A stretch of 64,000 bases of DNA from Terriglobales bacterium (GCA_036265385.1 DATAPD010000046.1:27059-91058), one strand, 5' to 3'. Shown: positions 5,690 through 50,517, counted from the stretch's first letter. Program-made: numbers and translations. Notes: generated by a model from the sequence alone, not told the origin.

Positions 5690-6175
5690 TTAACCCCGAA
5701 ATTCCCATTTCGTCGCGGTTTCCGCGAATTCCTTTTCATACATGGCAAACACGACGGAAGGGCGCACCTCGAAAATCGGTCCCATTTTCGGGTCGAGTTT
5801 CCATGGCTTGTATTTGCGGTGGTAGTGCGGCGCGATGCTTGTGAGTAGTTTCTTATCTCGAACAGCCGTCGCAGTTCCTTCCACGATTACTGCTTCGTGC
5901 GCCTTCTCGGTGCACAGTACACAGTGACGATTCTTTGCGAGATTCTTAGCCTTTCGCGATTTTGCGCCAGTGCTGAAATAGAACCGGCTGTCCACCCAGA
6001 CGCCCCAGATTGGCATGCAATGCGGAGTACGATCTGGCCGCACCGTCATGAGCCAATAATTATGGGATTTTGTTAAACGATCTTCGGCCCACTTCCAGGG
6101 TAGGAGGCCGTCGGAGGCGGGAGGGAATCCGTAACCTGGAGCAACGGGTCGAGAAGAGTTAGGCGGCTTCGGCAT
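5690..6175 (-). CDS. Pyridoxamine 5'-phosphate oxidase family (FMN/F420-binding split-barrel) protein
   Basis: HNYWLMTVRPDRTPHCMPIWGVWVDSRFYFSTG...AVIVEGTA resembles the PPOX-class split beta-barrel family. Confidence 0.65.
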   Translation of the reverse strand: MPKPPNSSRPVAPGYGFPPASDGLLPWKWAEDRLTKSHNYWLMTVRPDRTPHCMPIWGVWVDSRFYFSTGAKSRKAKNLAKNRHCVLCTEKAHEAVIVEGTATAVRDKKLLTSIAPHYHRKYKPWKLDPKMGPIFEVRPSVVFAMYEKEFAETATKWEFRG

Positions 6176-23343: not shown

Positions 23344-24261
23344 TCAGGCGGCTTTCATCTCATCTTCCAAGGTGCGTTTCTTTGCTTCGAACTCTCTTGC
23401 TTTCCTGTCTTCGTTCTCGATTACCCAATTCACTTCCGCACCAATCAAAAAGGCGTATCCCGTGTTGTAAAGCCACAACATTAGGATTACGACGGCTCCG
23501 ACCGAGCCGTATGTCGCGCTGTAACTATTGAAGAAGTGGAGGTAGATGCGGAAGGCGACGGATGCAAGTAGCCAGAGCAAGACGCCGGCCGCACTTCCTG
23601 GAGTGACCCAATACCATTTTCTTTCTTTCAGCGAAGGTCCAAAGTAATACACGATCGAGAAAGCCAGGAACATGGCGCCGAACGTAATCGGCCACTGCAG
23701 AATCTTCCAAACGACACGAAAGACGCTACCGGCGCCGATGTAGTTGAAGACAACTTCGCCGATTTTGCCTCCGTACAATGCGAGCACCAGCGCGAAGATG
23801 ATGAGAGCTGAAAGTGCCAAAGTTAGGCTGATGATGGTTACTTTTTGCTTCCACCACGGTCGACCTTCGTTGATTTCGTAAATTTTATTTAGAGAAACAA
23901 TGACTGCGCTCATGCCTCCGGAGGCCGCCCATAATGCTCCCAGGATTCCCGCAGCAAGCTTCACACCGCTGCTGGCTCGGAATGTTTGTTCGACGACGTT
24001 GCGAACCAGGTCAGCGGCTGAACCCGGTGCGAGGCGTCCCAGGGCAGCCATGATTCTGAACTGAAGCACAGAGTGTGGACCAGCGATCACGCCAATCAGG
24101 GACAAAAGGAAAAGAATGAGGGGGAACAGCGCAAGCAGAAAATAATAGGAGAGCGAGGCGGAACGGGTTGGCAGTTCATCTTCGCGATGTTTTTGCGCGG
24201 CGAGGCGGATAAGCGCGAGCGGAGTGAGCTGCCCGAATTTCCATAGAGATGTCATCGCCAC
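23344..24261 (-). CDS. YihY/BrkB (virulence factor BrkB) family membrane protein
   Basis: …SASLSYYFLLALFPLILFLLSL… and six TM segments. The ATG at 24255 is an alternative to the GTG at 24261. Confidence 0.8.
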   Translation of the reverse strand: MAMTSLWKFGQLTPLALIRLAAQKHREDELPTRSASLSYYFLLALFPLILFLLSLIGVIAGPHSVLQFRIMAALGRLAPGSAADLVRNVVEQTFRASSGVKLAAGILGALWAASGGMSAVIVSLNKIYEINEGRPWWKQKVTIISLTLALSALIIFALVLALYGGKIGEVVFNYIGAGSVFRVVWKILQWPITFGAMFLAFSIVYYFGPSLKERKWYWVTPGSAAGVLLWLLASVAFRIYLHFFNSYSATYGSVGAVVILMLWLYNTGYAFLIGAEVNWVIENEDRKAREFEAKKRTLEDEMKAA

Positions 24262-24675
24262 TCAAGCGGCTCTTCTTCGTTTCCTGCGGACCTGTGGGGT
24301 ATCGGTTAATTCAGCAACCGCGGTTGTCACCGCTCCGTGAGCCAGGAAGAAGTTCTTTTCCCGTCCATCGAACGCGAGGAACTCTGGCAGCATCGCAGTC
24401 ATTGCCCCAAGTCCGACATCGATATCCCGATGCGCTTCCAACGTTATAGTTTTCATTCCGTCGCCGTCGTAGTCAGTGAGAAGACTAAGAGCAAGCTGCG
24501 TTCCGCCGCCTACCAGCGCTGCCAAAGAAGCGCGTTGATTGCGACGCCAGAAGAATGCTGCTGAAAGCAGAGATGCGGCGACGGACAGATAATCGATGGT
24601 CGCGTGCGCTTGCGGCGAAATTCTCCGAGGCAGAGGCTTGACTGCCATTTTGACTGCATTGTTCAGCATAGGCAT
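24262..24675 (-). CDS. Hypothetical membrane protein
   Basis: 137 aa with two to three hydrophobic segments and a basic tail (RRKRRRAA). I recognise no family. Confidence 0.4.
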   Translation of the reverse strand: MPMLNNAVKMAVKPLPRRISPQAHATIDYLSVAASLLSAAFFWRRNQRASLAALVGGGTQLALSLLTDYDGDGMKTITLEAHRDIDVGLGAMTAMLPEFLAFDGREKNFFLAHGAVTTAVAELTDTPQVRRKRRRAA

Positions 24676-24702
24676 AGAGTGCTCCGGTTTGTGTAATTGA
24701 AA

Positions 24703-24924
24703 TTAGTCGCGCGTGAAGATACCGGCGAAAGCGAACCCAGAGGCAAGCCCCAACAACCCGGCTATGCCCGCGACAATCGGAAAGTGCTCGCGGGCTTGAT
24801 TGCTGAAACTCAGTTTGTCGCGAGTCTCGTGAACTTTCTCGCGAAGATCCGAGGCTGTCTTATGAAGCTGCTTCCGCTGCTCAATCGCTTTGAGTTGGAG
24901 ATTGTCTATCTGCGGAGTGCTCAT
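24703..24924 (-). CDS. Small tail-anchored coiled-coil protein (YqjK-like position)
   Basis: Start at MSTPQ, overlapping the upstream stop (ATGA). It has an N-terminal coiled coil and a C-terminal TM (IVAGIAGLLGLASGFAFAGIF). Confidence 0.4.
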   Translation of the reverse strand: MSTPQIDNLQLKAIEQRKQLHKTASDLREKVHETRDKLSFSNQAREHFPIVAGIAGLLGLASGFAFAGIFTRD

Positions 24925-25346
24925 ATCTGCTGCCTCGCTTCGTTCTCCAGCCACGCTTTATCTTCTTTAAGCACAGCTATGGTCCTCTGCGGCACGAGGC
25001 GCGCCAGTTTGAATTCCCGTTTCGCGACGTAAAGCGCGATCGCTCCGAGAAGACCCCAGAGCACGCCGCCGCCAAGCAGTGCGAACACCCATCGATATGG
25101 AGTGTTCCCGATCAAAACAGCGGCCAAAGCTACGATAGTCGCCGTAATCAAGAGATAAGAGGTTGCTAGAAGAAGGATTCCGACAACGGCTAATGGCGCA
25201 GCCGTTTTCCAATTGGCGGTTTTCTCACGAAGTTCGCTCCTGAATAGTTCGAAGCGCGTTTCGGCGAATTCCTTTAACTCGCGCTTCATCTCGGAAGCGA
25301 TGTCCGATATAGAGCGCGCGGTGTGATTTCTGTCGACTTCATTCAT
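24921..25346 (-). CDS. Holin-X / YqjE-like (Phage_holin_3_6, former DUF1469) membrane protein
   Basis: MNEVDRNHTARSISDIASEMKRELKEFAETRFELFRSELREK followed by two TM helices. This pattern is typical of the family. Confidence 0.6.
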   Translation of the reverse strand: MNEVDRNHTARSISDIASEMKRELKEFAETRFELFRSELREKTANWKTAAPLAVVGILLLATSYLLITATIVALAAVLIGNTPYRWVFALLGGGVLWGLLGAIALYVAKREFKLARLVPQRTIAVLKEDKAWLENEARQQI

Positions 25347-25665
25347 GGTTGGATCTCCATACACGGATTAGAGCTCCAAGTACAAAAGCTGCCCCGGCAG
25401 TGATGGCCACTAACTTCATCGGATCGTCAGCCCGCATGCGTTCAAACTCATCGGACAGGCCTTCCGCCCAAAAGCGCACCTTCGCGATTCCTGATGAGAG
25501 GGAATAGCCAGCACGCTGGGCGATACTCTGGCCATCCGATGCAGAGGTTTCTATGGGAACCATTTGTAGGCTTTCCGTCACGACAACGATTTCGGGCTCC
25601 GAGGTGATTTGGCTCGGGTCGTTCACATTAGGGTCGGGATTCAACGGCTCAGCTCGTTGAGCCAT
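25339..25665 (-). CDS. DUF883 (ElaB/YqjD-like) tail-anchored protein
   Basis: Start at MAQRAEP with AAGGAG upstream. The C-terminus …RADDPMKLVAITAGAAFVLGALIRVWR resembles the ElaB/YqjD C-terminal anchor. Confidence 0.5.
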   Translation of the reverse strand: MAQRAEPLNPDPNVNDPSQITSEPEIVVVTESLQMVPIETSASDGQSIAQRAGYSLSSGIAKVRFWAEGLSDEFERMRADDPMKLVAITAGAAFVLGALIRVWRSNHE

Positions 25666-25790
25666 AGGCACGCTCCTTGACTGCTGCCTTTCTGATGAAA
25701 ACGGATCGCGCTGGGTGGGATCAAAAGGCAGAAAGATTCGTAAGCAGGTTTTCGGCAAATCGTGTTTGCCCCGGTTCTGGTAAATCTGGG

Positions 25791-27635
25791 CTACTTCATG
25801 AGGGCATCCAGAGTCTTCTCTGCCTGCTGATGAAGATCGGGGGGAGCTCCATAGAGGACTTTTGCTGAGTTGCCGGACTGATCGAAAAGAAACAAGGTAG
25901 GGACCGAGGTGATGTCGCCGAAGGCTTGGGCGGTATGGGCATCGGTGATGGCCCAGCGCAATTCGGGGCTGAGCGCTGCAGCGGTTAAGCGAATCTTGTC
26001 CTCGGGAGATTCAACAGCCAGGGCCACCACTGCCAGGTTGTCGCCATACTTCTTCTTCAAGTCGCCCAGCCATTGCAGAGTGGAGCGGCATGGCGGACAC
26101 CACGTAGCCCAAAATTCGACGAGCACAACCCGTCCGGCCAGCTGGTCGCTGGTTAGCGGTTTACCCGAGAGGTCGGTAACTTTGAAAGCCGGAAGTTTGG
26201 TCAACTCGCCGGTTGCTGCAGGTTTGTGCTCACTCGCAACGACGTCTTTTTTGCCGGCGAGGATCAGGTCGATCATCCTGATGAGATCTGCTTTGAATTT
26301 CGCCTGATTGTCAGCATTGCGCCAAGGCGCGTATCGACCAGCGCCTTCGACTTCGCCGAAGTAGCCAAACTCCCGCGGTGCTGCCACGAGAACGTCGTCA
26401 ACAAAAATGGCTGGGTACCCCTTCACGCCAAACTGTTCTGCCAGTTTGGAAGCACCGAAATTTTCGCTGACGAAGGTGACTTGACCGGGGTATTGTGCGG
26501 CAACTTCTTGGACCAGCAAACTTGCTGGATCAGAAATGTTTCAAGTGTAGGGCCATCGAACTAGAGTGAGGGTGACGGTTTTGCCTGATATGTGGTCGAC
26601 GTGGCGGGCAGGTTTTTGAGCCGCAAGATAAGCAGGCAACACCTGCTCAACTATCACCTGTGCGGCCTTCCATTCATCAGGAGTGGGAGCCGAACCGTCG
26701 TTGTGTGCGATATAAGACGATGCACGTTCGAGAAATAGTTGAGCGATCGAGTCGTCCTGCTCCGAGGATGCAGTTTTGTTGAGTTGGCTTTCTATTTCCA
26801 ACTTGAGTTTGGACTGTTCAGTTTGCTCTGGTACGGCAGTGTCCAGCATGCCGTACTGCCGTGTTGCCTCGAGATACTGGTACAGACTTCCGGCATAAAA
26901 CTTTTGGGAATCGAGTTCCTGCGCGAGTTTGAGCGCCGAGTTCAACGCGATGAAGCGAGGATGCAATTCAATTGACTTCGGTGGACGAAACGCATCGTTC
27001 GTTTTTTGTTGAAGCTTCTGCAATTCGGGAAGGTAGGACCGAAGTTCAAAGCCAGATGGTTTCGAGTCGGGATGAACCTCGGAGCAAAACTTGGCGAACT
27101 CTGCTTCGCCCTGGGCTTGGCCCACATAGAACAGGCCTTCCTGTGGTTTGGTAGCGGTAGCAAAGCCCCTTCCACCATCAAGAAGAGGAATCGATCGACC
27201 CTGCGCCGCTTCCGCCAACGCGCGCCATGCAATGGGCACGTTGCTCCATGTTTTCTTGCGCGCTTCCTGATCGTAGGCAGTGAGTTGAAGGCTGGTCTTG
27301 TTCCATTCCGCTTCGAAAGCGGGCAAGCTGTCTCCAATCGCAGCCGATTTCTCGTCGATTGTCCGGCCGCCTGAAAGCAGATCCTCTGCCTGAGCCAATT
27401 CCTCCATTGCGAGATAAAGATGTCCAGACTTCAGGGAGTCTTTCGCCCCCTTCAAGCTATCGGAGACCATCTCGTTGACGGCTGAAAAATCCTTCGACGT
27501 GATCGGTTTGTCTTTCAGAGAGCGTTCCAGTCGATCGATCTCCGCCTGAATTTGAGAGGAAGGCGTTTGGGCGAGGGCGATGAACGCACACAAAACAAGA
27601 GCAGACAGCAATAAGACAGTGCGGCAGTTTCTCAT
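25791..27635 (-). CDS. Secreted multidomain protein read through an in-frame TGA (26541-26543): unknown N-domain, thioredoxin fold with U-x-x-S, and TlpA-like CPPC domain (putative selenoprotein)
   Basis: Track ORFs 26541..27647 and 25791..26519 are in the same frame, separated only by TGA plus 7 sense codons. The Trx fold is split by the TGA: beta1 (TVTLTLV) lies before it; alpha1, beta2 and the cis-Pro (GYPAIFV) lie after it. The signal peptide is MRNCRTVLLLSALVLCAFIALAQ. CPPC is at 26088-26099. Confidence 0.6.
26504..26536 (-). promoter_or_regulatory. SECIS-like stem-loop downstream of TGA 26541-26543
   Basis: mRNA: UGA-AACA-UUUCU-GAU-CCAGCA-AGUU-UGCUGG-UCCA-AGAAG. The 6-bp upper stem starts 12 nt after the UGA and the apical loop AGUU contains GU. 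There is a 5-bp lower stem. Confidence 0.5.
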
Positions 27636-27689
27636 GCGGAGCTCCACAGCATAGACGCAGGTGCTGCCCCGAGGTGAGCTCTGTGCAGA

Positions 27690-28415
27690 CTAATGAACTC
27701 GCTGGATTGCGGCTTCCAGTTCGGCTGGCTTGAACCCGAACGGGCCGGGCTTGCTCTTGTACGCGACTCGCCCTTGGGTATCGACGAGATAGAGCCGATC
27801 CGGCCATCCTGTATAAGCGCTTTCTGTCACGTTGTTGAATTCGTCGATCACTGCGGGAATCTTAATTCCGAGTCGATTTATGCATGTGCCGGCGAGGGAG
27901 ACACGCTCAGCGTCATCTCGCGGGCTGGCAAAAACCAGATTCTCTTTCACATTGTTCTCTGTTTGCCAAACATCGCTCGGATGAGCTTCCAGGATGTAGA
28001 CGATCAGGAATGCGATATGATCGCCGTACTTTTGATAAAGGCTGTTTAAGGCGGGAACCTCCCGTCGGAACGGCGGTCAGGTGTAGCTGCCAAAGACCAG
28101 CACGACTGGTTGCTTCGAGGCGAGGGCGCTCAGTTGAACGTGCGCGCTCTTGTCGAGCTTTGGTAAATCGAAATCGGTAGCGGGGTCACCGACGCGAAGC
28201 TGTCCGGCACGAGCTTGAGTCCACAATGTCTCAAAGGGCAGGATCAAGAAGACGGCGTCGGGCATGTGGGACATGACTCGGCCAAAAGTCTCGGGTGGCT
28301 GATGCATAGCCCAGACGATGAGTCCAGCAAAAGCGATATACAACATCAGCACAAGCGCTAGCCCGCGCCGTAGCCATTTTTTGGTGGAAATGCTCAACCC
28401 CATGTGAGGCAGCAT
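27690..28415 (-). CDS. Iodothyronine deiodinase-family protein with in-frame TGA (28077-28079) at the catalytic Sec position; N-terminal membrane anchor
   Basis: Track ORFs 28077..28415 and 27690..27950 are in one frame. My manual translation across the gap has no other stop. It reads …VVLVFGSYT-TGA-PPFRREVPALNSLYQKYGDHIAFLIVYILEAHPSDVW…PDRLYLVDTQGRVAYKSKPGPFGF…. This matches the vertebrate DIO motifs FGSCTUPxF, FLVIYIEEAHxSDGW and PERLYI..G.I.YKG..GP. Confidence 0.8.
28050..28066 (-). promoter_or_regulatory. SECIS-like hairpin downstream of TGA 28077-28079
   Basis: mRNA: UGA-CCGCCGUUCC-G-A-CGGGA-GGU-UCCCG-C-C. The 5-bp stem (plus a G-C pair beyond one A.C mismatch) starts 10-12 nt after the UGA. 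The apical loop is GGU. Confidence 0.5.
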
Positions 28416-28476: not shown

Positions 28477-29460
28477 TTAATAGATTGAGCCACCCGCCTG
28501 GGTCGAACTCAGCACGCCCGCATTCGCGGAGACGCTATAGCTGGTTCCGTTGCGGCCAGTCCAACGACCAAGATCGAAGGTGCCGCTCGAGTTGATGCGA
28601 TAGACGCCAACATTCGTATAGGTCAGAGGAGTCTTGGGAGCGCAAACCTCCGGTGCACCTGGTGCCTGCAGAAAATAAGCGGTGCTGCTACCAACCACGG
28701 AAAGAGTTCCAGTGGGCTCGATCAGAAGCGCTGTTTTCTCATCGACTGATATCCCGCGTGGCGCAGTTGACCAACCGTTCGTGTAAATACGGCAGAGGAA
28801 AGCAAGGTCACGCCCCATGCGGTCCCGTGTAACGAAGTGCGGATCCCCGATGACACCTTGCAATGCGCTGACATTTGCAAAATCACGCGCCAACGTGATG
28901 TATCTGTTGAAGGGATCGGCGAGCGACTGACTCGAGGTCGCTCCCTGGCTCGCCAAGGCTGAATAGACAAACTGCGTCAACACATTCATGCCGGCGCTGG
29001 TGCCGCCAACAGGAACGCCGCGCGCGATGGCGTCATTGAGATTGCTCTGGACAGGGGTTCCAGTCCAATAGTTGATGTAGTTCGACTGATCGCCGCCGGC
29101 AATCCAGATTGCCTCCGCGTTGCGGATGGTTGCCGCTACGAAGGGATCGTTCGCAGCTGCGTTGTTTGGAATTATCAGAGTCGCGACGGAGTTCTCGCTC
29201 GGGCAGAGCTGTTGGATGTAGGGATTGTAAGCGTCCGTGCCGGTCGCACGGATCACTAGGAAGTCCCCATTGCCGCTGCGGCCACACATCCACTGAAAAG
29301 CGGCATCGACGTCGGTGCCACCGCCCATCAGAACAGTTCCGGCTGAGGTCGTCGTGGTCACATCATTGGCATTTCCAACCCGGAAATAAGAATACTGTTT
29401 GGCAGCCCAAAGCTGGGTTACGGAGCAAAAGAACAGAGCGAGCATTGCGAACCGTTTCAT
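28477..29460 (-). CDS. Secreted peptidase S51 (cyanophycinase-like) family protein
   Basis: Start at MKRFAMLALFFCSVTQLWA with GGAGG upstream. Motifs include …AIWIAGGDQSNY…, …VGGTSAGMNVL… (Ser nucleophile context) and …GISVDEKTALLIE…. Confidence 0.7.
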   Translation of the reverse strand: MKRFAMLALFFCSVTQLWAAKQYSYFRVGNANDVTTTTSAGTVLMGGGTDVDAAFQWMCGRSGNGDFLVIRATGTDAYNPYIQQLCPSENSVATLIIPNNAAANDPFVAATIRNAEAIWIAGGDQSNYINYWTGTPVQSNLNDAIARGVPVGGTSAGMNVLTQFVYSALASQGATSSQSLADPFNRYITLARDFANVSALQGVIGDPHFVTRDRMGRDLAFLCRIYTNGWSTAPRGISVDEKTALLIEPTGTLSVVGSSTAYFLQAPGAPEVCAPKTPLTYTNVGVYRINSSGTFDLGRWTGRNGTSYSVSANAGVLSSTQAGGSIY

Positions 29461-29583
29461 CGAAGCCTCCGGCAAAGGCCGCTATGATAGCCGTGTTTCG
29501 CCGAACGGCGCAATCAGCAAGGGCCTGAATAAGAAGAAAACTCGGGGTCATCCGCTACAATAGCCGCGCTCGCAGGAGGGAAA

Positions 29584-43693: not shown

Positions 43694-44079
43694 TAGAGAA
43701 ATTGCAAGGGGCAATTAAAAAATCTGAACATCTGCCGAAGAGAGGGAGAACCACCGGTGCGCATTCCACGCAACCAATCCAGAATTGGACCTCGGGTCTT
43801 TGCTCGTGACCTTCAACTTGATCATCACTCTGTGTCCCGCATCGTGTTCACTTAAGTTGCAACTTACTGCAGAACACACCTCCGTATCCTTTTGTTTCCA
43901 CGCCGCGTAAGCCTCAAGCCTGCTTGCCCGTTTGCCGAAATCGCTTCTCCTCGCGCTTTGGCAGACGTTCTGCAATAAAGGATTCGCCTCCCCAAGTTTC
44001 CTTGTCCCCGAAGGTGCCAGCCAGTCCGATCTGTGGCTGGGTTGAAGCGTTCTGCTCAATCTTCCTCCCCGGAGATCCG

Positions 44080-47000
44080 ATGACCGCATTCAAGCGCTTT
44101 TTCATGGCGTCATTGCTCGTTGTGTGCTGTGTTTTCGCACTGACTGCTTCCGTTCCGAATGTGCCGTCCGGCACCTGGCAAGCATGGGGGGACATGAGCG
44201 TGGCCCGGCAAGGCGCCGCCACGGTTCGGCTACAAGATGGAAGACTGCTAATTGTTGGCGGGTCTGATGCGAATGGTCCGCTCGCGAGCGTAGAAATCTT
44301 CGGAAATGATGGCACCTTCAGCAATGCGCAGCCGATGCACGCAGCGCGTACGGGTCATGCCGCGACCATGCTGACGGATGGGCGAGTGCTAGTCAGCGGC
44401 GGTGCCAGCAGCGGTGGCAATGTGACGAATGCCACCGAGATTTACGATCCCGCTTCGGATTCATGGACTGTCGTTGGCGGCGGGATGGTTGATGCGCGCG
44501 CGGGTCACACGGCGAGCTTGCTGTTGGATGGACGAGTCTTCGTCGCTGGAGGACGCGATTCCTCCGGCAACGCACTTTCCAGCACAGAGATTTTCGATCC
44601 GATCATGCAAGGCTTTATCCCCAGCGCGACGATGGGTTCGCCGCGAACGAACCACGCGGCCGCCATGCTGGGCGATGGACGCGTGTTTCTAATTGGAGGT
44701 AGTGATGGCGCAAACACATTGAACTCCGTGGACATTTTTGATCCCGTTGCCGGAACGGTTGCCCCTGGACCAGCTCTGTCTACTCCTCGGTCAGCGGCCA
44801 CTGCCACGACCACATTGGATGGCAAGGTCGTTGTAATCGGCGGCAACAATGAATCCGGAGACCTAGCTTCCATTGAAATCTTCGATCCTTTCGTTGGGAC
44901 GTTTGCGCTTTCATCTGCGAGCCTCACAGCCCCTCGTTCGGGCCACAGGGCTTTCCTGCTACCGAACAACAACGGTGTGCTGATTGTTGGAGGAACATCT
45001 GCAGGAACCGACTTGAGTAGCGCGGACCTTTACCAAACATGGAACGATACCGCGCAAGCGACAGGTGCGATGGCGGGGGCGCGTTCAGGACTGAGCGGAA
45101 GTGCGCTGAACACGGATGGATTACTACTAGCGTTTGGCGGAACTAACGCATCGACAGAGCTGTACGGATTCCCGACGGTGAAAACTGACCAGACGGATTA
45201 CCCTCCGGGAACCCCGGTGACGATCACAGGCAGCGGTTGGCAGCCCGGCGAAACAGTTACCTTGACCTTGGCCGAGTCACCCGATCTGGACACCCATCCG
45301 GTGATGACTGCGGTAGCGGATGCGAATGGTCACATTGTTAATGCCGATTTCGCGCCCGATTTGCATGATCTCGATATCCGGTTCTACCTGACAGCGGTCG
45401 GGAGTGTTTCCGGCCGACAGGCGCAGAACACATTTACTGACGCGAACCGGCAGATCAACATCACCGGGTTCAGTATCAACTCGCCTTCGGGTGCTACCGA
45501 CAACACGATGAACGTGTCGCAGCAGTTCAATGTTCATTTGGTTTACAACGTTTCGGGTGGAAGCTGGACCAATGTCGGGCCAGTGTTGACCGTGCCCACC
45601 GGGTGGAGCAAGAGTGCGGATCCGGCGACCCAGAGTATCTCCAACACAACCAACCGTACCGCGGATTGGACCGTAACTCCGCCTTCAAGCCCAGGCAGCG
45701 GGGCGATTTCGGTTTCTGTGAACGGTACAGTTGCGAATCCCGATAACTGCAACCAATGTCCCGCGACGGGCAGTTTCAATGCGACGGCGGTAAACCCAGC
45801 CTCTCTGAGTATCTCCAGCATGACTGCAGCGAAAACTGTCGGTGGTGGAACGACGGCGAAAACCGGCGATGCAATCACCGTGACAATGGTGGTGGCGAAT
45901 GCTGCAGCGCCGCGCGCGACCGCGAACTCCGTCGCACCCTCATTATTGACGGTGAATGCCTCCGGTGCCACTGGAACGTGCTCTGCGAGTGGAACTGCAG
46001 CCGGGACCATCGCAGCGGGCGGGAATCGAACTTACACGTACAGCTGCACAGTCACGGGCGGCAATGGCACATTGAGCTTCACTGGTTCGGCGGCGGGCAC
46101 CGACGAAAACAGTTTGGCGGCTGTAAGTTCAGGCAGCGCTACAACCAATTCCATCACAATCGACAACGTTGTTCCTGCTCCGCCATCAACGCCCGATCTG
46201 GATCCTGCGAGCGACAGCGGGGCGTTGAACAACGATGACATCACGAACGTTCAGAAGCCCAAGTTCAACGGAACAGCGGAACCGGGCGCGACCATCACCC
46301 TGCTTGTCGATGGAACAGCGAATGGCACAGCTGTTACGGATGGCTCCGGGAATTGGTCGGTAACAGCAGCCAATAACATTACAGATGGCCAGCATTCGAT
46401 CACCGCAACGGCGACGGATGCCGCAAACAACGTTTCGTCGCCCTCGGGGGCGTTAAGCGTCAAGATTGACACGGTCGCGAATCCACCGTCGGCGCCAGAT
46501 CTCGATCCAGCAAGCGACAGCGGCGCACTGAACACGGATAACATCACGAACGTCACGACCCCGAAATTCAACGGCACAGCGGAGCCGAATGCTTCGGTGG
46601 AAGTCTTCCGTGGAGGTTCGACATCTCTCGGAACAACAACCGCCGATAACTCAGGAAACTGGAGTTTGACGGTTGCTTCAGCCTTAGCAGACAACATCTA
46701 CAGCATCACTGCGAAGCAGACCGATGTGGCTGGGAATATTTCGAATGCATCTGGAGCGCTCAGCCTAACTATCGATACAGTGCCGCCGAGTGCCCCATCA
46801 TCGCCAAACCTCAGTTCGAGTGACGACACTGGGATTCTGAACAACGACAACATCACGAATAAAACCAGCAATCTCAATTTCACGGGTTCAGCCGATCCGA
46901 ACATAACCGTGTCTCTGTTTGAGGGCGCAACGCAACTAGGCACAACCACTGCGAACAACGGGTCAGGGAATTGGACCATCGTTGCTCCAGGGCCATTTGC

Positions 47001-50000
47001 GCCTGGGACTCACGTCTTCATTGCGAAAGCGACAGACGTGGCCGGAAATACGAGCACATCAGTTCCGCATACCGTGGTGATTGATACGACCTCCCCAACG
47101 GTCACGATCAACCAGGCCGTGGGACAAGCGGATCCGGCGGTAACAGGCCCCATCAACTTCACTGTTGTATTCAGCGAAGCCGTCACTAATTTCGCGACAG
47201 GGGATGTCACTCTGAGCGGAACGGCCGGCGCGACGACCGCCGTTGTTACCGGCAGCGGAACAACTTATAACGTCAGTGTGAGCGGTATGACGTCATCCGG
47301 CACGGTGATTGCTTCGATCAACGCTGGTGTTGCGACAGACACCGCTGGTAACGGCAACACTGCTTCCACCAGCACTGACAACACTGTGACCTACAACCCC
47401 GACAGTAAAGCACCAATCGTTACGATCAGTTTCGGAGCGCCTGATGGACAAAATGGCTGGTTTGTTCATTCCCCTGTTGCGGGAACTGTCACGGCAAATG
47501 ACACGACAACTGGCAACAGCAATGTCACCGCGATCAGCTGCACGGATGGAGTGAACGCGCTTGCCGTCGGATCTCTTGCCGGAATCGGAACACCGAGCGC
47601 GAGCGGCTCGATCTCTGTTTCTGGCGACGCGACGCATAGCATTTCGTGCGCGGCTACTGACAGTGCGGGAAATACGGGGGCATTTACCGGCTCAACCGTG
47701 ATGCCGGTTGTAGTGAAAATTGATACTCAGGCACCAACTGGCGTAACAGGAAGTGCGGCACGCGCAACTGACCACAACGGTTGGTACAACGCGTCAGTTG
47801 GGATCACCTTCAACGGCACCGATTCCACATCTGATATTGCAAGCTGTACGAGCACCACTTACACAGGGCCCGATTCTGCAACTGCATCGGTGCTCGGACA
47901 TTGCACGGACAATGCTGGCAACACAAGTGCTGATGTAGCTTTCAATTTCAAATTTGATGCGACAGCGCCGACCGGCGTAGCTCTTTCTGTTACAGCTGGA
48001 ACAATGGGAACGAATGGCTGGTACACGAGCGACGTGACTGTGCACACTTCCGGAACGGAAGCTGTCAGCGGTCCCCCAATTTGCACTGCAGATCAGATTC
48101 AGTCGGCGGAGACAATGGGCCAAGTCTTCAATGGGTCTTGCACGAATGATGCGGGATTGTCGGCGAATGCGGCTGCACTGACGGTCAAGCTGGACAAGAC
48201 GCCGCCCTCTGCAAGTCTGGCTGTTTTTGCAGGAACGCTTGGTAATGCCGGCTGGTACATAAGTGATGTAACGGTTCGCGCGTCTGGCTCCGACTCGATC
48301 GCCTCACCTGTAACGTGTACTGCGGATCAATTCCTCACGACAGACAGCACGGGCCATACGTTCGGTGGTTCGTGCACCAACGATGCTGGTCTCACGGCGA
48401 ATGCCACAGATCTAACTGTCAAGCTCGACAAGACAGCGCCTACAGTCCAGATCACACCTTCGCGATCGGCCGATCACAACGGCTGGTACAACCATGGGCT
48501 GTCGTTCACGAATCCTGGAACAGACTCGACATCTGGAATTGCCAGCTGCACGACCCCCGCTGCGTATTCCGCTCCAGACAATGCCAATGCCGTTGTCACT
48601 GCGACCTGTACAGATAACGCGGGGAACGTGGGCAATGGCTCGTTTAACCTCCAGTACGATTCGACTCCTCCTACGAACGTCTCGGGAGCGCCGAATCGTG
48701 CCGCCGATCACAACGGTTGGTACAACCACGCAGTGGATGTCGTGTTCTCTGGGCTGGATGCGACCTCGGGAATCGAGGCTTGCACAAGCACAAACTACAG
48801 TGGACCGGACAGCGTGAGTGCATCAGCCAACGGCCACTGCACTGATAATGCCGGCAACAGTAGCGCTGACGCTGCATCTCCGGCGTTCAAATTTGATTCG
48901 ACTCCGCCGACGGCGACGTCAGTCGTATCCGCGGGTACAGCCGGGACGAATGGTTGGTACACGAGCAACGTGACCGTTCATACGAGCGGCACAGACAACA
49001 TCAGCACTCCGGTGGCGTGCGATGCGGACCAGGTGATTAGTACGGAGACCGCGGGCATCCCAGTGAGTGGCAATTGCACGAACGATGCGGGCTTGTCGGC
49101 TGTGTCGACCGCGATCACCGTGAAGTTGGATAAGACGCCGCCCACAAATGTCTTGCTGACAGCAACAGGCACTGTTGGACTGAACAGTTGGTACACCAGC
49201 GACGTCAGCATCAAGACGACTGGGCAAGAGTCGATCAGCACGCCGCTGGTTTGCACGGCGGATCAAAGTCAAACTACAGATACGATCGGTCAGGCCTTCC
49301 ACGGTTCTTGTACAAACGATGCCGGATTGGCTGCAAACGCGACGGATCTCACGATCAAGCGCGACGCGACTCCTCCGGTTCTCACAGTAACGTTCACGCC
49401 GGATGCCCCAGATGGAAATAATGGCTGGTGGAAGACGCCGGGTGGAGTTCCGTATAACTGGACGTGCAGCGATGTTACGTCTGGAGTTGACGGTTCTTAC
49501 GCCGGTGGATGTCCGACTCCTGCCAGCGGCACGACAACAGCAAACGGGACCACGCACTTTGGTGGACAAATCCGAGATCAGGCAGGGAACTTGAGTGTCA
49601 TGGTTTCGCGCGACCTGAAATTGGACAACGTTGCGCCGGTCGTTACGTGGAATTCGGCAGGTGACACGTGCTCATTGCCGGGCAACTCCGGATGGTGCCG
49701 TGGAACTGAAACGGCAGCATTCACAGCGAGCGATGCGACGTCTGGCCTCGCCAATCTTGCTCAAGCGTCGTTCACGCAATCGACTGGAACGAATGGTGGG
49801 TCCGTTTCGATTGCATCGGGCAGCGTGACCGATCAGGCTGGCAACACCAACTCTGGTGTGAACGCGGGGCCGTACAAGATTGATAGTGTTGCTCCCACAA
49901 TCACGATTAACAATCCGGCGAATGGGTCGAACTTCCTGCTGAACGCTGCCATTCCGGCGAATTACAGTTGCAATGACTCGACGTCCGGAGTCTCGAACTG

Positions 50001-50517
50001 TGCCGGCCCGGTGACGAATGGATCGAATTTCAGCACCAGTCCGGTGGGATCACACACGTTCACGGTGAATGCCACTGACGTGGCGGGTAATCCAGCCACG
50101 CCGGTTAGCTACAACTACAGCGTGCTTTACGCTTCCGGTGGAATGTGTCTCGGCTCACCAGGGCACGCAATCCTGCAACCGATCAACATGGATGGGACCA
50201 GTGTGTTCAAACTGGGCAGCACAGTGCCAACGAAGTTCCGAGTGTGCGATGCCAATGGAGTTTCCATCGGAACCTCGAATGTTGTGGCGCAGTACGGTCT
50301 GACCTCGGCTGCGAACACTCCCAATATCACGGTGGCTGAAGACATTTACTCAACCACTCCAGACACTGCGTTCCGTTGGGACCCGACTGATCAGCAGTGG
50401 ATCTTCAACCAGAGCACCAAGAACAACTCGACGATGAATGCCAAGGGAGTGACATACTTGCTGGCTATCAAATTGAATGATGGCTCATTCATCTACTTCC
50501 AGTACGGTTTGAAATAA
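44080..50517 (+). CDS. Giant (2145 aa) secreted Kelch beta-propeller plus multi-Ig-like repeat surface protein
   Basis: Start at MTAFKRFFMASLLVVCCVFALTAS with GGAG upstream. Six to seven Kelch-like blades carry DGR(V/L)(L/F)(V/I)xGG (aa 35-365). Three DLDPASDSGxLNxDxITN Ig-like modules span aa 700-1005. About 9-10 NGWY/Cys-containing modules span aa 1115-1850. Further Ig-like domains follow. Confidence 0.8.
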   Translation: MTAFKRFFMASLLVVCCVFALTASVPNVPSGTWQAWGDMSVARQGAATVRLQDGRLLIVGGSDANGPLASVEIFGNDGTFSNAQPMHAARTGHAATMLTDGRVLVSGGASSGGNVTNATEIYDPASDSWTVVGGGMVDARAGHTASLLLDGRVFVAGGRDSSGNALSSTEIFDPIMQGFIPSATMGSPRTNHAAAMLGDGRVFLIGGSDGANTLNSVDIFDPVAGTVAPGPALSTPRSAATATTTLDGKVVVIGGNNESGDLASIEIFDPFVGTFALSSASLTAPRSGHRAFLLPNNNGVLIVGGTSAGTDLSSADLYQTWNDTAQATGAMAGARSGLSGSALNTDGLLLAFGGTNASTELYGFPTVKTDQTDYPPGTPVTITGSGWQPGETVTLTLAESPDLDTHPVMTAVADANGHIVNADFAPDLHDLDIRFYLTAVGSVSGRQAQNTFTDANRQINITGFSINSPSGATDNTMNVSQQFNVHLVYNVSGGSWTNVGPVLTVPTGWSKSADPATQSISNTTNRTADWTVTPPSSPGSGAISVSVNGTVANPDNCNQCPATGSFNATAVNPASLSISSMTAAKTVGGGTTAKTGDAITVTMVVANAAAPRATANSVAPSLLTVNASGATGTCSASGTAAGTIAAGGNRTYTYSCTVTGGNGTLSFTGSAAGTDENSLAAVSSGSATTNSITIDNVVPAPPSTPDLDPASDSGALNNDDITNVQKPKFNGTAEPGATITLLVDGTANGTAVTDGSGNWSVTAANNITDGQHSITATATDAANNVSSPSGALSVKIDTVANPPSAPDLDPASDSGALNTDNITNVTTPKFNGTAEPNASVEVFRGGSTSLGTTTADNSGNWSLTVASALADNIYSITAKQTDVAGNISNASGALSLTIDTVPPSAPSSPNLSSSDDTGILNNDNITNKTSNLNFTGSADPNITVSLFEGATQLGTTTANNGSGNWTIVAPGPFAPGTHVFIAKATDVAGNTSTSVPHTVVIDTTSPTVTINQAVGQADPAVTGPINFTVVFSEAVTNFATGDVTLSGTAGATTAVVTGSGTTYNVSVSGMTSSGTVIASINAGVATDTAGNGNTASTSTDNTVTYNPDSKAPIVTISFGAPDGQNGWFVHSPVAGTVTANDTTTGNSNVTAISCTDGVNALAVGSLAGIGTPSASGSISVSGDATHSISCAATDSAGNTGAFTGSTVMPVVVKIDTQAPTGVTGSAARATDHNGWYNASVGITFNGTDSTSDIASCTSTTYTGPDSATASVLGHCTDNAGNTSADVAFNFKFDATAPTGVALSVTAGTMGTNGWYTSDVTVHTSGTEAVSGPPICTADQIQSAETMGQVFNGSCTNDAGLSANAAALTVKLDKTPPSASLAVFAGTLGNAGWYISDVTVRASGSDSIASPVTCTADQFLTTDSTGHTFGGSCTNDAGLTANATDLTVKLDKTAPTVQITPSRSADHNGWYNHGLSFTNPGTDSTSGIASCTTPAAYSAPDNANAVVTATCTDNAGNVGNGSFNLQYDSTPPTNVSGAPNRAADHNGWYNHAVDVVFSGLDATSGIEACTSTNYSGPDSVSASANGHCTDNAGNSSADAASPAFKFDSTPPTATSVVSAGTAGTNGWYTSNVTVHTSGTDNISTPVACDADQVISTETAGIPVSGNCTNDAGLSAVSTAITVKLDKTPPTNVLLTATGTVGLNSWYTSDVSIKTTGQESISTPLVCTADQSQTTDTIGQAFHGSCTNDAGLAANATDLTIKRDATPPVLTVTFTPDAPDGNNGWWKTPGGVPYNWTCSDVTSGVDGSYAGGCPTPASGTTTANGTTHFGGQIRDQAGNLSVMVSRDLKLDNVAPVVTWNSAGDTCSLPGNSGWCRGTETAAFTASDATSGLANLAQASFTQSTGTNGGSVSIASGSVTDQAGNTNSGVNAGPYKIDSVAPTITINNPANGSNFLLNAAIPANYSCNDSTSGVSNCAGPVTNGSNFSTSPVGSHTFTVNATDVAGNPATPVSYNYSVLYASGGMCLGSPGHAILQPINMDGTSVFKLGSTVPTKFRVCDANGVSIGTSNVVAQYGLTSAANTPNITVAEDIYSTTPDTAFRWDPTDQQWIFNQSTKNNSTMNAKGVTYLLAIKLNDGSFIYFQYGLK

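What the first reader, a model, noticed from the sequence alone, without database searches (positions are those of the whole stretch)
25791..28415. Two adjacent TGA-containing redox genes form a putative envelope selenoprotein module
The deiodinase-like gene (membrane-anchored) and the Sec-Trx/TlpA fusion (signal peptide) are co-directional and only 54 nt apart. Each has one in-frame TGA preceded by the same Y-T context (GSYT-U, WPYT-U).

Each TGA is followed at almost the same distance by a hairpin of similar design: a 5-6 bp GC-rich upper stem, a 3-4 nt loop containing GU, and a mismatch or bulge below.

Two independent occurrences side by side make chance or sequencing error less likely than either one alone.

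The deiodinase fold is peroxiredoxin/Trx-like. Pairing it with a Sec-thioredoxin plus a Cys-TlpA domain suggests an extracytoplasmic selenol/thiol electron relay, for example reductive dehalogenation, peroxide reduction or disulfide reduction. That functional idea is inference only.

An S51 peptidase gene lies immediately upstream on the same strand, 61 nt away.
Basis: inference. Interest (0 to 1): 0.8.

Follow-up and report, generated by a model that had tools for sequence, protein, structure and literature searches.

The report
Two neighbouring selenoprotein genes, one uncatalogued
Two adjacent genes of a soil Acidobacterium each use a UGA codon for selenocysteine: one is a known deiodinase-like enzyme, the other appears to be an unlisted family common in Acidobacteria, but the two are neighbours only in this narrow lineage, so they are not a conserved module.

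Summary
Two co-directional minus-strand genes lie 54 nt apart. Each has one in-frame TGA (GSYT-U-PPF; RWPYT-U-NIS), followed by a short G+C-rich hairpin that starts 12 nt after the TGA.

Comparative data show both are real selenocysteine codons. The TGA is present in 78/78 relatives of gene A and 79/79 Sec-type relatives of gene B. Cys stands at that exact position in the rarer Cys forms. The protein sequence stays conserved in frame after the TGA. Synonymous sites are frozen only across the hairpins.

Gene A is a membrane-anchored deiodinase-like selenoprotein. This family has been known since 2005 and is already listed for an Acidobacterium.

Gene B is more than a "Sec-Trx/TlpA fusion". It has a signal peptide, a roughly 330-aa all-helical domain with no Pfam family or PDB fold neighbour, a thioredoxin-fold domain with U-x-x-S, and a Cys TlpA/ResA domain. 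It occurs in at least 309 species-level Acidobacteriota genomes. Public annotation splits it in two, and it matches no family in a 2026 catalogue of 119 or in NCBIfam.

The "module" idea is not supported. No deiodinase-like gene lies within 5 kb of gene B in 80 other genomes. Only 1 of 45 informative gene A loci has gene B downstream.

The parts
27690..28415 (-). Gene A: deiodinase-like selenoprotein, 241 aa including Sec113
   Evidence: Read-through translation. Pfam T4_deiodinase E 6e-30. Mouse Dio3 4TR3 E 1e-20. Public annotation splits it (HEX3322007.1 is the first 112 aa).
28305..28382 (-). Gene A N-terminal membrane anchor (KKWLRR + 20 hydrophobic residues)
   Evidence: Read from the sequence. 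The topology, with the catalytic domain outside, is inferred from the positive-inside rule.
28077..28079 (-). Gene A Sec codon (UGA)
   Evidence: TGA in 78/78 relatives. Cys at this column in P0158, P0171, P0186, P0195 and P0206. Aligned with the catalytic Sec position of Dio3.
28049..28066 (-). Gene A SECIS hairpin (GACGGGA-GGU-UCCCGCC[U])
   Evidence: Codons CGG CGG GAG GTT are frozen in 64-74 of 74 relatives. The window copy has CGA, which gives an A.C mismatch.
27636..27689 (-). 54-nt intergenic spacer between A and B, with GGAG before the ATG of B
   Evidence: No terminator-like site on the minus strand in the spacer.
25791..27635 (-). Gene B: three-domain secreted selenoprotein, 614 aa including Sec365 (ATG numbering)
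   Evidence: Read-through translation. Full-length Cys orthologues P0003 and P0079. Public annotation splits it into HEX3322006.1 and HEX3322005.1.
27570..27635 (-). Gene B signal peptide (MRNCRTVLLLSALVLCAFIALA|QT)
   Evidence: Read from the sequence. The cleavage site is inferred.
26619..27569 (-). Gene B N-terminal all-alpha domain, family unknown
   Evidence: No Pfam or NCBIfam hit. AF2 pLDDT 87.9, pTM 0.84, 14 helices. No PDB fold neighbour, best E 0.96.
26238..26585 (-). Gene B thioredoxin-fold domain carrying Sec (U-N-I-S)
   Evidence: beta-alpha-beta-alpha-beta-beta-alpha in the AF2 model of Cys orthologue P0003. Weak but consistent thioredoxin alignments place U on the first Cys of WCGPC. 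The TGA splits the domain after beta-1.
26541..26543 (-). Gene B Sec codon (UGA)
   Evidence: TGA in 79/79 Sec-type genomes and TGC in the 2 Cys forms. In-frame conservation continues after it.
26503..26537 (-). Gene B SECIS: core hairpin 26513-26528 (CCAGCA-AGUU-UGCUGG) plus a weaker lower stem
   Evidence: Codons GCA AGT TTG CTG are identical in 77/77. The Cys forms use other codons there.
25794..26228 (-). Gene B C-terminal TlpA/ResA-type domain with WCPPC (26088-26102)
   Evidence: Pfam Redoxin, AhpC-TSA and Thioredoxin above cut-off. Foldseek of the orthologue model hits ResA, DsbE and CcmG, with TM up to 0.85.

Best explanation
These are two independent, genuine selenoprotein genes that happen to be neighbours in this Terriglobales lineage.

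**Decoding.** In each mRNA a bacterial SECIS hairpin sits 12 nt after the UGA, with its apical loop 17-18 nt downstream and a G in the first two loop positions. It recruits SelB carrying Sec-tRNA(Sec), so that UGA is read as selenocysteine.

**Gene A.** This is a membrane-anchored deiodinase-like enzyme whose Sec occupies the catalytic position of animal deiodinases. The family is a known bacterial selenoprotein family of unknown substrate.

**Gene B.** This protein is exported. It consists of an all-helical domain of unknown fold, a thioredoxin-fold domain whose nucleophile is Sec in a U-x-x-S motif (U-x-x-C in some lineages), and a TlpA/ResA-type domain with a C-P-P-C motif.

**Inferred mechanism for B.** The single selenol attacks an oxidised substrate such as a peroxide, sulfoxide or disulfide. 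The substrate may be presented by the helical domain. The resulting selenenic acid or selenenylsulfide is then resolved by the protein's own TlpA domain, which is in turn re-reduced by a CcdA/DsbD-type membrane electron donor.

The decoding of the UGA is well supported by the comparisons. The chemistry of gene B is inference.
For: **Sec decoding**
- TGA is present in 78/78 (A) and 79/79 (B) relatives, with conserved in-frame protein after it.
- Cys stands at the same column in full-length homologues.
- Synonymous sites are frozen exactly over the hairpins. In B the codons GCA AGT TTG CTG are identical in 77/77. In A the codons CGG CGG GAG GTT are kept in 64-74 of 74. Flanking codons vary.
- Cys forms do not keep those codons.
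- Stems are 99.8% (B) and 97.3% (A) paired, with A-U/G-U and G-C/G-U alternation.
- In the RNAalifold register for A there are two compensatory changes: L107 C-G and L138 A-U.
- Both hairpins meet the published bSECIS constraints (PMC13188914).
- TGA is also the commonest ordinary stop codon in the window, in 24 of 50 ORFs, so the code is standard.

**Gene A identity**
-.
- An orthologue (..VVLVFGSYTUPPFRREVPALNKL..) is listed as 'Deiodinase-like protein' for Occallatibacter riparius (PMC12013277 Data S1).

**Gene B architecture**
-.

**Independence of the two genes**
-.
Against: - No selA, selB, selD or tRNA-Sec lies in the 64-kb window. The rest of the genome could not be searched.
- No experimental evidence of selenium incorporation exists.
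- The hairpin stems are nearly invariant, so classical covariation is almost absent and the shuffle controls are uninformative.
- The window's gene A hairpin is weakened by a CGG->CGA change: -6.6 kcal/mol for the hairpin alone against -12.2 for the family consensus.
- The thioredoxin assignment of the Sec domain rests on sub-threshold sequence matches (Pfam 13.7 bits against a cut-off of 23.5) and on an AF2 model of a 45%-identical Cys orthologue, not of the window protein.
- The proposed chemistry of gene B has no direct support.
Confidence: 0.8

Rival explanations
1. A and B form a dedicated extracytoplasmic electron relay: the TlpA and Sec-thioredoxin domains of B recycle the selenenyl intermediate of the deiodinase-like enzyme A, and the two genes are co-transcribed as a module.
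For: - The genes are co-directional and 54 nt apart, with no terminator-like site between them.
- Both products are predicted to face the envelope.
- Animal deiodinases need a thiol reductant, and TlpA-type proteins are periplasmic reductants (established knowledge).
- The pair is retained in three related lineages: the window contigs L084-L086, L083 and L087.
Against: - No deiodinase-like gene lies within 5 kb of gene B in 80 other genomes.
- 44 of 45 informative gene A loci lack B downstream.
- Cys-form loci of both genes lack the partner.
- Each gene has variable neighbours of its own. B is preceded by an ECF sigma and anti-sigma pair in about 16 of 79 loci.
- Gene B carries its own Sec domain for the TlpA domain to serve.
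Confidence: 0.12
2. The TGAs are true stop codons. The region would then hold four separate short genes or decayed pseudogenes, and the hairpins are incidental.
For: - Public annotation calls them that way.
- Single-sequence folding is not significant.
- No Sec machinery is visible in the window.
Against: - The TGA is kept at the same codon in 157 independent relatives, with coding-type conservation straight through it and no start codon immediately after.
- Cys forms are contiguous.
- The TGA cuts a thioredoxin fold after its first strand, and it cuts the deiodinase domain at its catalytic residue.
Confidence: 0.02
3. UGA is recoded here to another amino acid rather than Sec. Candidates are Cys via a selC*-type tRNA, Ser via an acidobacterial allo-tRNA suppressor, or Trp.
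For: - Acidobacteria carry unusual allo-tRNAs that can act as suppressors, and SelC*-tRNA(Cys) exists in other phyla (PMC5389517).
- JGI gene calls for some relatives translate the TGA as W.
Against: - TGA is the commonest normal stop in the window.
- The recoding signal has the SelB-type SECIS design.
- selC* was reported outside Acidobacteria.
- An acidobacterial orthologue of gene A comes from an organism classed as Sec-utilising.
- The 'W' calls are most simply an alternative-code artefact on short contigs.
Confidence: 0.03

Closest known systems
Bacterial deiodinase-like selenoproteins (Zhang, Fomenko & Gladyshev 2005, PMC1088965; 'Deiodinase-like protein' of Occallatibacter riparius in PMC12013277 Data S1)
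   Same: Gene A has the PF00837 domain, Sec in the FGSxT-U-PPF active-site motif, Cys-containing homologues and a bacterial SECIS directly after the UGA. The O. riparius protein shares the N-terminal anchor, the MHQPPE..PFETLW segment and TUPPFRREVPALNKL.
   Different: Nothing essential differs. The window copy has a weakened SECIS stem (CGA). It scores below the cut-off of the NCBIfam model NF038285 (192 against 250 bits, C-terminal half only), so it belongs to a different subfamily from that model. The representative in the 2026 catalogue is listed with UxxC, whereas this one has U-P-P-F.
Animal iodothyronine deiodinases (mouse Dio3 catalytic domain, PDB 4TR3; Dio2, 9H48)
   Same: They share a single N-terminal membrane anchor, a thioredoxin/peroxiredoxin-like catalytic domain and Sec at the aligned position (E 1e-20).
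   Different: The SECIS is bacterial and lies inside the coding sequence, not in a 3'-UTR. Thyroid hormones are not an expected substrate. The bacterial family has a nearly invariant Cys178 that is absent from the aligned Dio3 segment.
TlpA / ResA / CcmG (DsbE) periplasmic thiol-disulfide reductases
   Same: The C-terminal domain of gene B scores above the Pfam cut-offs, has a W-C-P-P-C motif and, in the orthologue model, superposes on ResA, DsbE and CcmG (TM up to 0.85).
   Different: Here this domain is the last of three in a 614-aa secreted protein. It follows a Sec-containing thioredoxin-fold domain and an unknown helical domain. It scores below every NCBIfam equivalog cut-off.
Known Sec-containing TlpA-type or thioredoxin-type families (UGC-containing TlpA family; thiol-disulfide isomerase-like cd02966 UxxC; Redoxin family UxxC; WAxxUGC_long NF041054; Trx UxxC), as listed in PMC13188914 Table 1
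   Same: These are thioredoxin-fold redox proteins with Sec at the N-terminal position of the CxxC-type motif. Most are extracytoplasmic, and each has Cys-form homologues.
   Different: In those families the Sec sits in the TlpA, Redoxin or Trx domain that the models recognise. In gene B that domain keeps CxxC, and the Sec sits in a separate domain not recognised by sequence models, with the motif T-U-N-I-S. NF041054 scores 29 bits against a cut-off of 300, and only on the TlpA domain. None of the 119 listed families has this motif or architecture.
Neisseria PilB/MsrAB, in which a TlpA-like domain is fused to the methionine sulfoxide reductase domains it recycles (own knowledge, not tested here)
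   Same: It gives a precedent for an exported multidomain protein in which a TlpA-like CxxC domain is the built-in reductant of a neighbouring single-nucleophile catalytic domain. This is the mechanism proposed for gene B.
   Different: There is no sequence relationship to Msr domains. The order of domains is reversed. The nucleophile here is Sec.
Bacterial SECIS consensus (bSECISearch model; E. coli fdhF/fdnG elements)
   Same: The hairpin lies directly downstream of the UGA inside the ORF. [quoted passage not shown]
   Different: No Rfam model matched. The sequences are family-specific. The window's gene A hairpin alone is slightly weaker than the -7.5 kcal/mol criterion.

Membership tests
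Bacterial selenoprotein gene (both genes) | In-frame UGA aligned with Cys in homologues | tested here: met
   A: GSYT-C-PPF in P0158, P0171, P0186, P0195 and P0206. B: RWPYT-C-NLSDPA in P0003 and P0079.
Bacterial selenoprotein gene (both genes) | Conservation of the UGA and of the in-frame protein sequence downstream, across species | tested here: met
   78/78 (A) and 79/79 (B). Codons after the TGA show synonymous variation typical of coding sequence.
Bacterial selenoprotein gene (both genes) | bSECIS geometry: 3-9 nt loop, 4-16 bp upper stem, G in the first two loop positions, 16-37 nt from the UGA to the loop (PMC13188914 Fig. 2) | tested here: met
   A: loop GGU, 5 bp (7 bp in the family), 17 nt. 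B: loop AGUU, 6 bp, 18 nt.
Bacterial selenoprotein gene (both genes) | bSECIS stability, MFE <= -7.5 kcal/mol | tested here: inconclusive
   B: -7.9 for the core and -13.6 with the lower stem. A in the window: -6.6 for the hairpin alone and -8.9 in 45-50 nt. A family consensus: -12.2.
Bacterial selenoprotein gene (both genes) | Selection on the RNA structure (synonymous-site constraint or covariation) | tested here: met
   Synonymous freeze confined to the hairpin codons. A-U/G-U and G-C/G-U alternation. Two compensatory changes in A. True covariation is sparse because the stems are invariant.
Bacterial selenoprotein gene (both genes) | selA, selB, selC and selD present in the genome | not testable with these tools
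   None lies in the 64-kb window. A cultured member of the phylum with a gene A orthologue is classed as Sec-utilising.
Bacterial selenoprotein gene (both genes) | Selenium shown in the protein | not testable with these tools
   This needs 75Se labelling or mass spectrometry.
Iodothyronine deiodinase family, PF00837 (gene A) | Domain match above the curated cut-off, with Sec at the catalytic position | tested here: met
   104.7 bits against a cut-off of 27. fgsytCppf aligns with FGSCTCPPF of Dio3 4TR3.
NCBIfam NF038285 'deiodinase family protein' (gene A) | Whole-protein score above the curated cut-off | tested here: not met
   192 bits against a cut-off of 250. Only profile positions 177-340 of 347 match.
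Iodothyronine deiodinase family (gene A) | Reductive dehalogenation activity | not testable with these tools
   Biochemistry is required. The literature expects a different substrate in bacteria.
TlpA/ResA/CcmG thiol-disulfide reductases (gene B C-terminal domain) | Redoxin/AhpC-TSA domain, CxxC motif, fold match | tested here: met
   Pfam 45.7 and 42.9 bits above the cut-offs, and a WCPPC motif. Foldseek hits ResA, DsbE and CcmG at E 2e-7 with TM 0.85, on the model of Cys orthologue P0003.
Thioredoxin fold (gene B Sec domain) | Sequence-model match above the cut-off | tested here: not met
   PF00085 13.7 bits against 23.5. PDB thioredoxins E 0.03-1.6. NCBIfam TIGR02187 12.8 bits against 185.
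Thioredoxin fold (gene B Sec domain) | beta-alpha-beta-alpha-beta-beta-alpha topology, with the nucleophile at the N-terminus of helix 1 and a cis-Pro loop | tested here: met
   AF2 model of P0003: E392-398, H408-417, E424-430, H435-439, E447-450, E453-456, H479-497. U falls between beta-1 and alpha-1. A G-Y-P-A motif precedes beta-3. The model is of the orthologue and was not compared domain by domain with Foldseek.
Conserved two-gene module or operon (A + B) | Neighbourhood conserved across lineages | tested here: not met
   0 of 80 gene B genomes and 1 of 45 informative gene A loci.
Catalogued prokaryotic selenoprotein families (gene B) | Match to a listed family by model, motif or architecture | tested here: not met
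   No NCBIfam selenoprotein model covers the Sec domain or the N-domain. Nothing in the 119 families of PMC13188914 Table 1 corresponds. BSepDB itself could not be queried.

The most novel reading that the evidence does not exclude
Gene B defines an unrecognised, Sec-dominant selenoprotein family that is characteristic of soil Acidobacteriota. It is found in at least 309 species-level genomes and about 800 clusters at 50% identity, with only two Cys forms seen. It would be a secreted, self-recycling selenoenzyme: a one-selenol thioredoxin-fold domain (T-U-x-x-S) is regenerated by the protein's own TlpA domain, and it acts on a substrate bound by an N-terminal helical domain that has no structural relative. 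In the window's lineage it may additionally have been recruited as the reductant of the neighbouring deiodinase-like enzyme.
Probability: 0.35. Interest if true: 0.7.

Novelty: new variant of a known kind. Interest (0 to 1): 0.5.

Why it matters
**Annotation.** Both genes are broken into fragments in public records ("hypothetical protein", "thioredoxin domain-containing protein", "TlpA disulfide reductase family protein"). For gene B this error recurs in hundreds of Acidobacteriota genomes and thousands of metagenome contigs.

**Selenium biology.** Acidobacteriota are among the most abundant soil bacteria, yet they are credited with very few selenoproteins; three were listed for O. riparius. 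A widespread, almost exclusively Sec-containing envelope protein would change the picture of selenium demand in soils. It would also add a family with a new domain architecture to the roughly 119 known.

**Method.** The freeze of synonymous sites over the hairpin separated real Sec codons from stop codons where covariation statistics were uninformative.

**Limit on the claim.** The negative synteny result prevents an attractive but unsupported "selenoprotein operon" from being propagated.

Tried and rejected
- **Rfam scan of the window:** no match, so no curated RNA family covers these hairpins.
- **ARAGORN:** no tRNA or tRNA-Sec in the window.
- **Search for selA, selB and selD:** Pfam on 20 window ORFs, plus the precomputed Pfam of the 20-kb neighbourhood, found none. 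This is uninformative for the whole genome.
- **Single-sequence folding against shuffles:** not significant, so it was not used as evidence.
- **Covariation statistics:** observed values equal the shuffled values because the stems hardly vary. Synonymous-site analysis was used instead.
- **Lower stem of the gene B hairpin (nt 7-12 with 36-41):** only 82% paired, with many mismatches. It is treated as optional.
- **Homology between the two Sec domains as the source of the shared 'YT-U' context:** rejected, since BLASTP finds nothing.
- **Structure prediction of the window protein with U replaced by C:** The Cys orthologue P0003 and the exact N-terminal part of the window protein were modelled instead.
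- **Foldseek of the full model:** returned only TlpA-type hits.
- **Foldseek of the N-domain:** returned nothing credible.
- **Conserved neighbours of either gene as a clue to function:** none is shared with the window. The only recurrent ones are an ECF sigma/anti-sigma pair upstream of B in about 16 of 79 loci, ArgR downstream of B in 13 of 79, and IlvD-like genes near A in 14 of 78.
Full report
**What is in the sequence**

The region holds two co-directional genes on the minus strand.

- Gene A runs 28415->27690 (241 codons). Its in-frame TGA is at 28079-28077, in the context VVLVFGSYT-U-PPFRREVPAL.
- Gene B most likely starts at the ATG at 27635, which is preceded by GGAG. A GTG at 27647 is also open. 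It ends at 25791, and its in-frame TGA is at 26543-26541, in the context TLTLVRWPYT-U-NISDPASLL.
- The two genes are 54 nt apart. An S51-type (cyanophycinase-like) peptidase gene ends 61 nt upstream of gene A.
- Twelve nucleotides after each TGA a hairpin begins: CGGGA/GGU/UCCCG in A, with an A.C mismatch below, and CCAGCA/AGUU/UGCUGG in B.

On the single sequence the hairpins are no better than shuffled controls (z = -0.7 and -2.0 for 60 nt). The window alone does not settle the matter.

**Are the TGAs selenocysteine codons?**

Gene B. A scan of one genome per species found relatives in 309 genomes. The 80 best are all Acidobacteriota: Terriglobales, Acidoferrales and Bryobacterales.

- In 79 of 79 loci where the motif is present, the codon after RWPYT is TGA.
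- The frame continues with N(I/L)SDPASLL..ENFG.S.LA..GV.
- The only two full-length products in the protein database, P0003 and P0079, have Cys exactly there (RWPYT-C-NLSDPA).
- A profile search of 1.84 billion cluster representatives found 810 clusters. Almost all of the best 150 are 350-380 aa long and end exactly at the last profile position, which means they are truncated at the TGA. The Sec form is therefore the rule and the Cys form the exception.

Gene A.

- 78 of 78 metagenomic relatives have TGA in FGSYT-U-PPF.
- More distant homologues have Cys there.
- JGI calls with "W" at that position are best explained as TGA read with an alternative code.

Genetic code. TGA is also the commonest ordinary stop codon in the window, ending 24 of 50 ORFs. 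The genetic code is therefore standard and the recoding is site-specific.

**The hairpins are under selection as RNA**

- In gene B the four codons that form most of the hairpin (GCA AGT TTG CTG; 4-, 6-, 6- and 6-fold degenerate) are the same codon in 77 of 77 distinct sequences. Codons on either side use 2-4 synonymous codons freely.
- In gene A the codons CGG CGG GAG GTT are likewise fixed, in 72, 74, 74 and 64 of their respective counts.
- The Cys forms do not keep these codons.
- The one variable position in the gene B stem alternates A-U/G-U. The stem is 99.8% paired.
- The gene A stem is 97.3% paired, with G-C/G-U alternation. In the RNAalifold register, which has a bulged C, two sequences show compensatory changes: L107 C-G and L138 A-U.
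- Classical covariation statistics are uninformative because the stems barely vary.
- Both elements satisfy the published bacterial SECIS model: a 3-9 nt loop, a 4-16 bp stem, G in the first two loop positions and 16-37 nt from the UGA to the loop (PMC13188914). The distances here are 17 and 18 nt.
- The window's gene A copy carries a synonymous CGG->CGA change that weakens its stem. The hairpin alone is -6.6 kcal/mol, against -12.2 for the family consensus.

**What the proteins are**

Gene A.

- It matches Pfam T4_deiodinase (E 6e-30) and the catalytic domains of mouse Dio3 and Dio2 (E 1e-20). The Sec lies on the catalytic Sec position.
- It has an N-terminal anchor (KKWLRR followed by 20 hydrophobic residues). 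The outward orientation of the catalytic domain is an inference.
- Bacterial deiodinase-like selenoproteins were described in 2005 (PMC1088965).
- An obvious orthologue from the Acidobacterium Occallatibacter riparius is listed among "known selenoproteins" in the deep-Sep supplement.
- Gene A is thus a new member of a known family. It falls below the cut-off of NCBIfam NF038285.

Gene B has four parts.

1. A signal peptide (..AFIALA|QT).
2. About 330 residues with no Pfam or NCBIfam match. This part is modelled confidently as an all-helical domain (pLDDT 87.9, pTM 0.84) with no PDB fold neighbour (best E 0.96).
3. A domain that the TGA cuts after its first strand.
   - In the AF2 model of the Cys orthologue P0003 (pLDDT 78.9) this domain has thioredoxin topology.
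   - Weak but register-consistent alignments to many thioredoxins put U on the first Cys of WCGPC.
   - The motif is U-N-I-S in most genomes and U-S-L-C in a subset, L057, L067, L069, L071 and L072.
4. A TlpA/ResA-type domain with WCPPC.

No other Cys is conserved, so the TlpA CxxC is the only candidate resolving partner. The proposed self-recycling mechanism follows from that and is an inference.

**Is gene B known?**

- No NCBIfam selenoprotein model (release of June 2026) covers the Sec domain.
- The listed Sec-TlpA-type families carry their Sec inside the TlpA or Redoxin domain. In gene B that domain keeps Cys.
- None of the 119 families in the May 2026 catalogue corresponds in motif or architecture.
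- NCBI and JGI annotate the two halves separately, as "hypothetical protein" and "TlpA disulfide reductase family protein" or "thioredoxin domain-containing protein".
- I could not query BSepDB, so "uncatalogued" remains probable rather than certain.

**The module hypothesis**

- None of 80 species-level genomes with gene B has a deiodinase-like gene within 5 kb. The only weak tblastn hits are the TlpA domain itself.
- Of 45 gene A loci with at least 2.4 kb downstream, only L087 has gene B.
- Cys-form loci of B (L001, L002) and of A (L167-L169) lack the partner.
- The pair occurs in contigs of the same organism (L084-L086), in an 86%-identical relative (L083) and in L087, which shares many other window genes. 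This points to one lineage-specific juxtaposition.
- The S51 gene is not retained in L087.
- The neighbours of each gene vary. An ECF sigma/anti-sigma pair precedes gene B in about 16 of 79 loci.
- Co-transcription in this organism is plausible, given the 54-nt gap and the absence of a terminator-like site.

**Limits**

- No Sec-machinery gene or tRNA-Sec lies in the window, and the rest of the genome was out of reach.
- There is no experimental evidence for selenium incorporation.
- The fold assignment of the Sec domain comes from a model of an orthologue.
- The functions of both proteins are unknown. The chemistry offered is by analogy with one-Cys thioredoxin-fold enzymes that are recycled by a fused TlpA-like domain.

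**Verdict**

The conserved "module" is not supported. The most valuable part of the finding is gene B: a widespread, Sec-dominant, mis-annotated and apparently unlisted selenoprotein family with a new domain architecture.

Noticed in passing
window 26619-27569 (-): The N-terminal domain of gene B (about 330 aa) is modelled with high confidence as a 14-helix bundle, but it has no Pfam or NCBIfam family and no PDB structural neighbour. It carries strongly conserved motifs (GRSIPLLDG.RGFAT.TKP..GLFY.GQAQGEAEF; PP.SI.LH.RFIALNS.LK.A.ELD; DDSIAQLFLERA).
   Followed up: partly
L057, L067, L069, L071, L072 (TGA near 5939-6060): A subset of gene B relatives has U-S-L-C (UxxC) instead of U-N-I-S (UxxS), so the resolving position switches between Ser and Cys within one family. 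The two Cys forms have C-N-L-S.
   Followed up: partly
L031 3998-4816, L045 2774-3544 and about 14 other gene B loci: In about 16 of 79 genomes, gene B lies directly downstream of an ECF sigma factor and a zinc-finger anti-sigma factor on the same strand. This hints at envelope-stress regulation in those lineages. The arrangement is not present in the window.
   Followed up: no
window 27693-28049 (+): A 118-aa ORF antisense to the C-terminal half of gene A is called as a gene in public gene calls of the same contigs (L084 9587-9943). It is almost certainly spurious, a side effect of gene A being truncated at its TGA.
   Followed up: partly
P0121, P0122, P0126, P0146 and other JGI entries: Many JGI gene calls for gene A relatives on short contigs read the Sec codon as Trp (GSYTWPPF) and are named 'peroxiredoxin'. 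This is probably due to an alternative genetic code chosen by the gene caller, so the full-length 'W' forms are disguised Sec forms.
   Followed up: partly
window 27882-27884 (-), residue Cys178 of gene A: A Cys in the motif AG(T/A/S)C is nearly invariant in the bacterial deiodinase-like family but is not matched by a Cys in the aligned Dio3 segment. It is a candidate resolving cysteine.
   Followed up: no
window 28064-28066 (-): The window's gene A has CGA where 72 of 74 relatives have CGG. This puts an A.C mismatch into the SECIS stem. L138 has the same CGA but a compensating GCT (A-U).
   Followed up: yes
window 28477-29475 (-): The upstream 'S51 peptidase' has a signal peptide and is closest to cyanophycinase (TIGR02069, E 2e-21, below the cut-off). 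It may be a secreted cyanophycinase-like enzyme. It is not conserved next to gene A in L087.
   Followed up: partly
window 43924-50517 (+): A giant 2197-aa ORF carries Kelch beta-propeller repeats followed by several bacterial Ig-like (Big_13, Big_6, Big_12) domains. It is probably a surface protein.
   Followed up: no
window 23344-25758 (-): Directly downstream of gene B, on the same strand, is a run of small membrane-protein genes (139 aa; 147 aa Phage_holin_3_6; 83 aa; 137 aa) followed by a BrkB/YihY-family gene. The run is conserved with gene B only in the close relatives L083-L086.
   Followed up: partly
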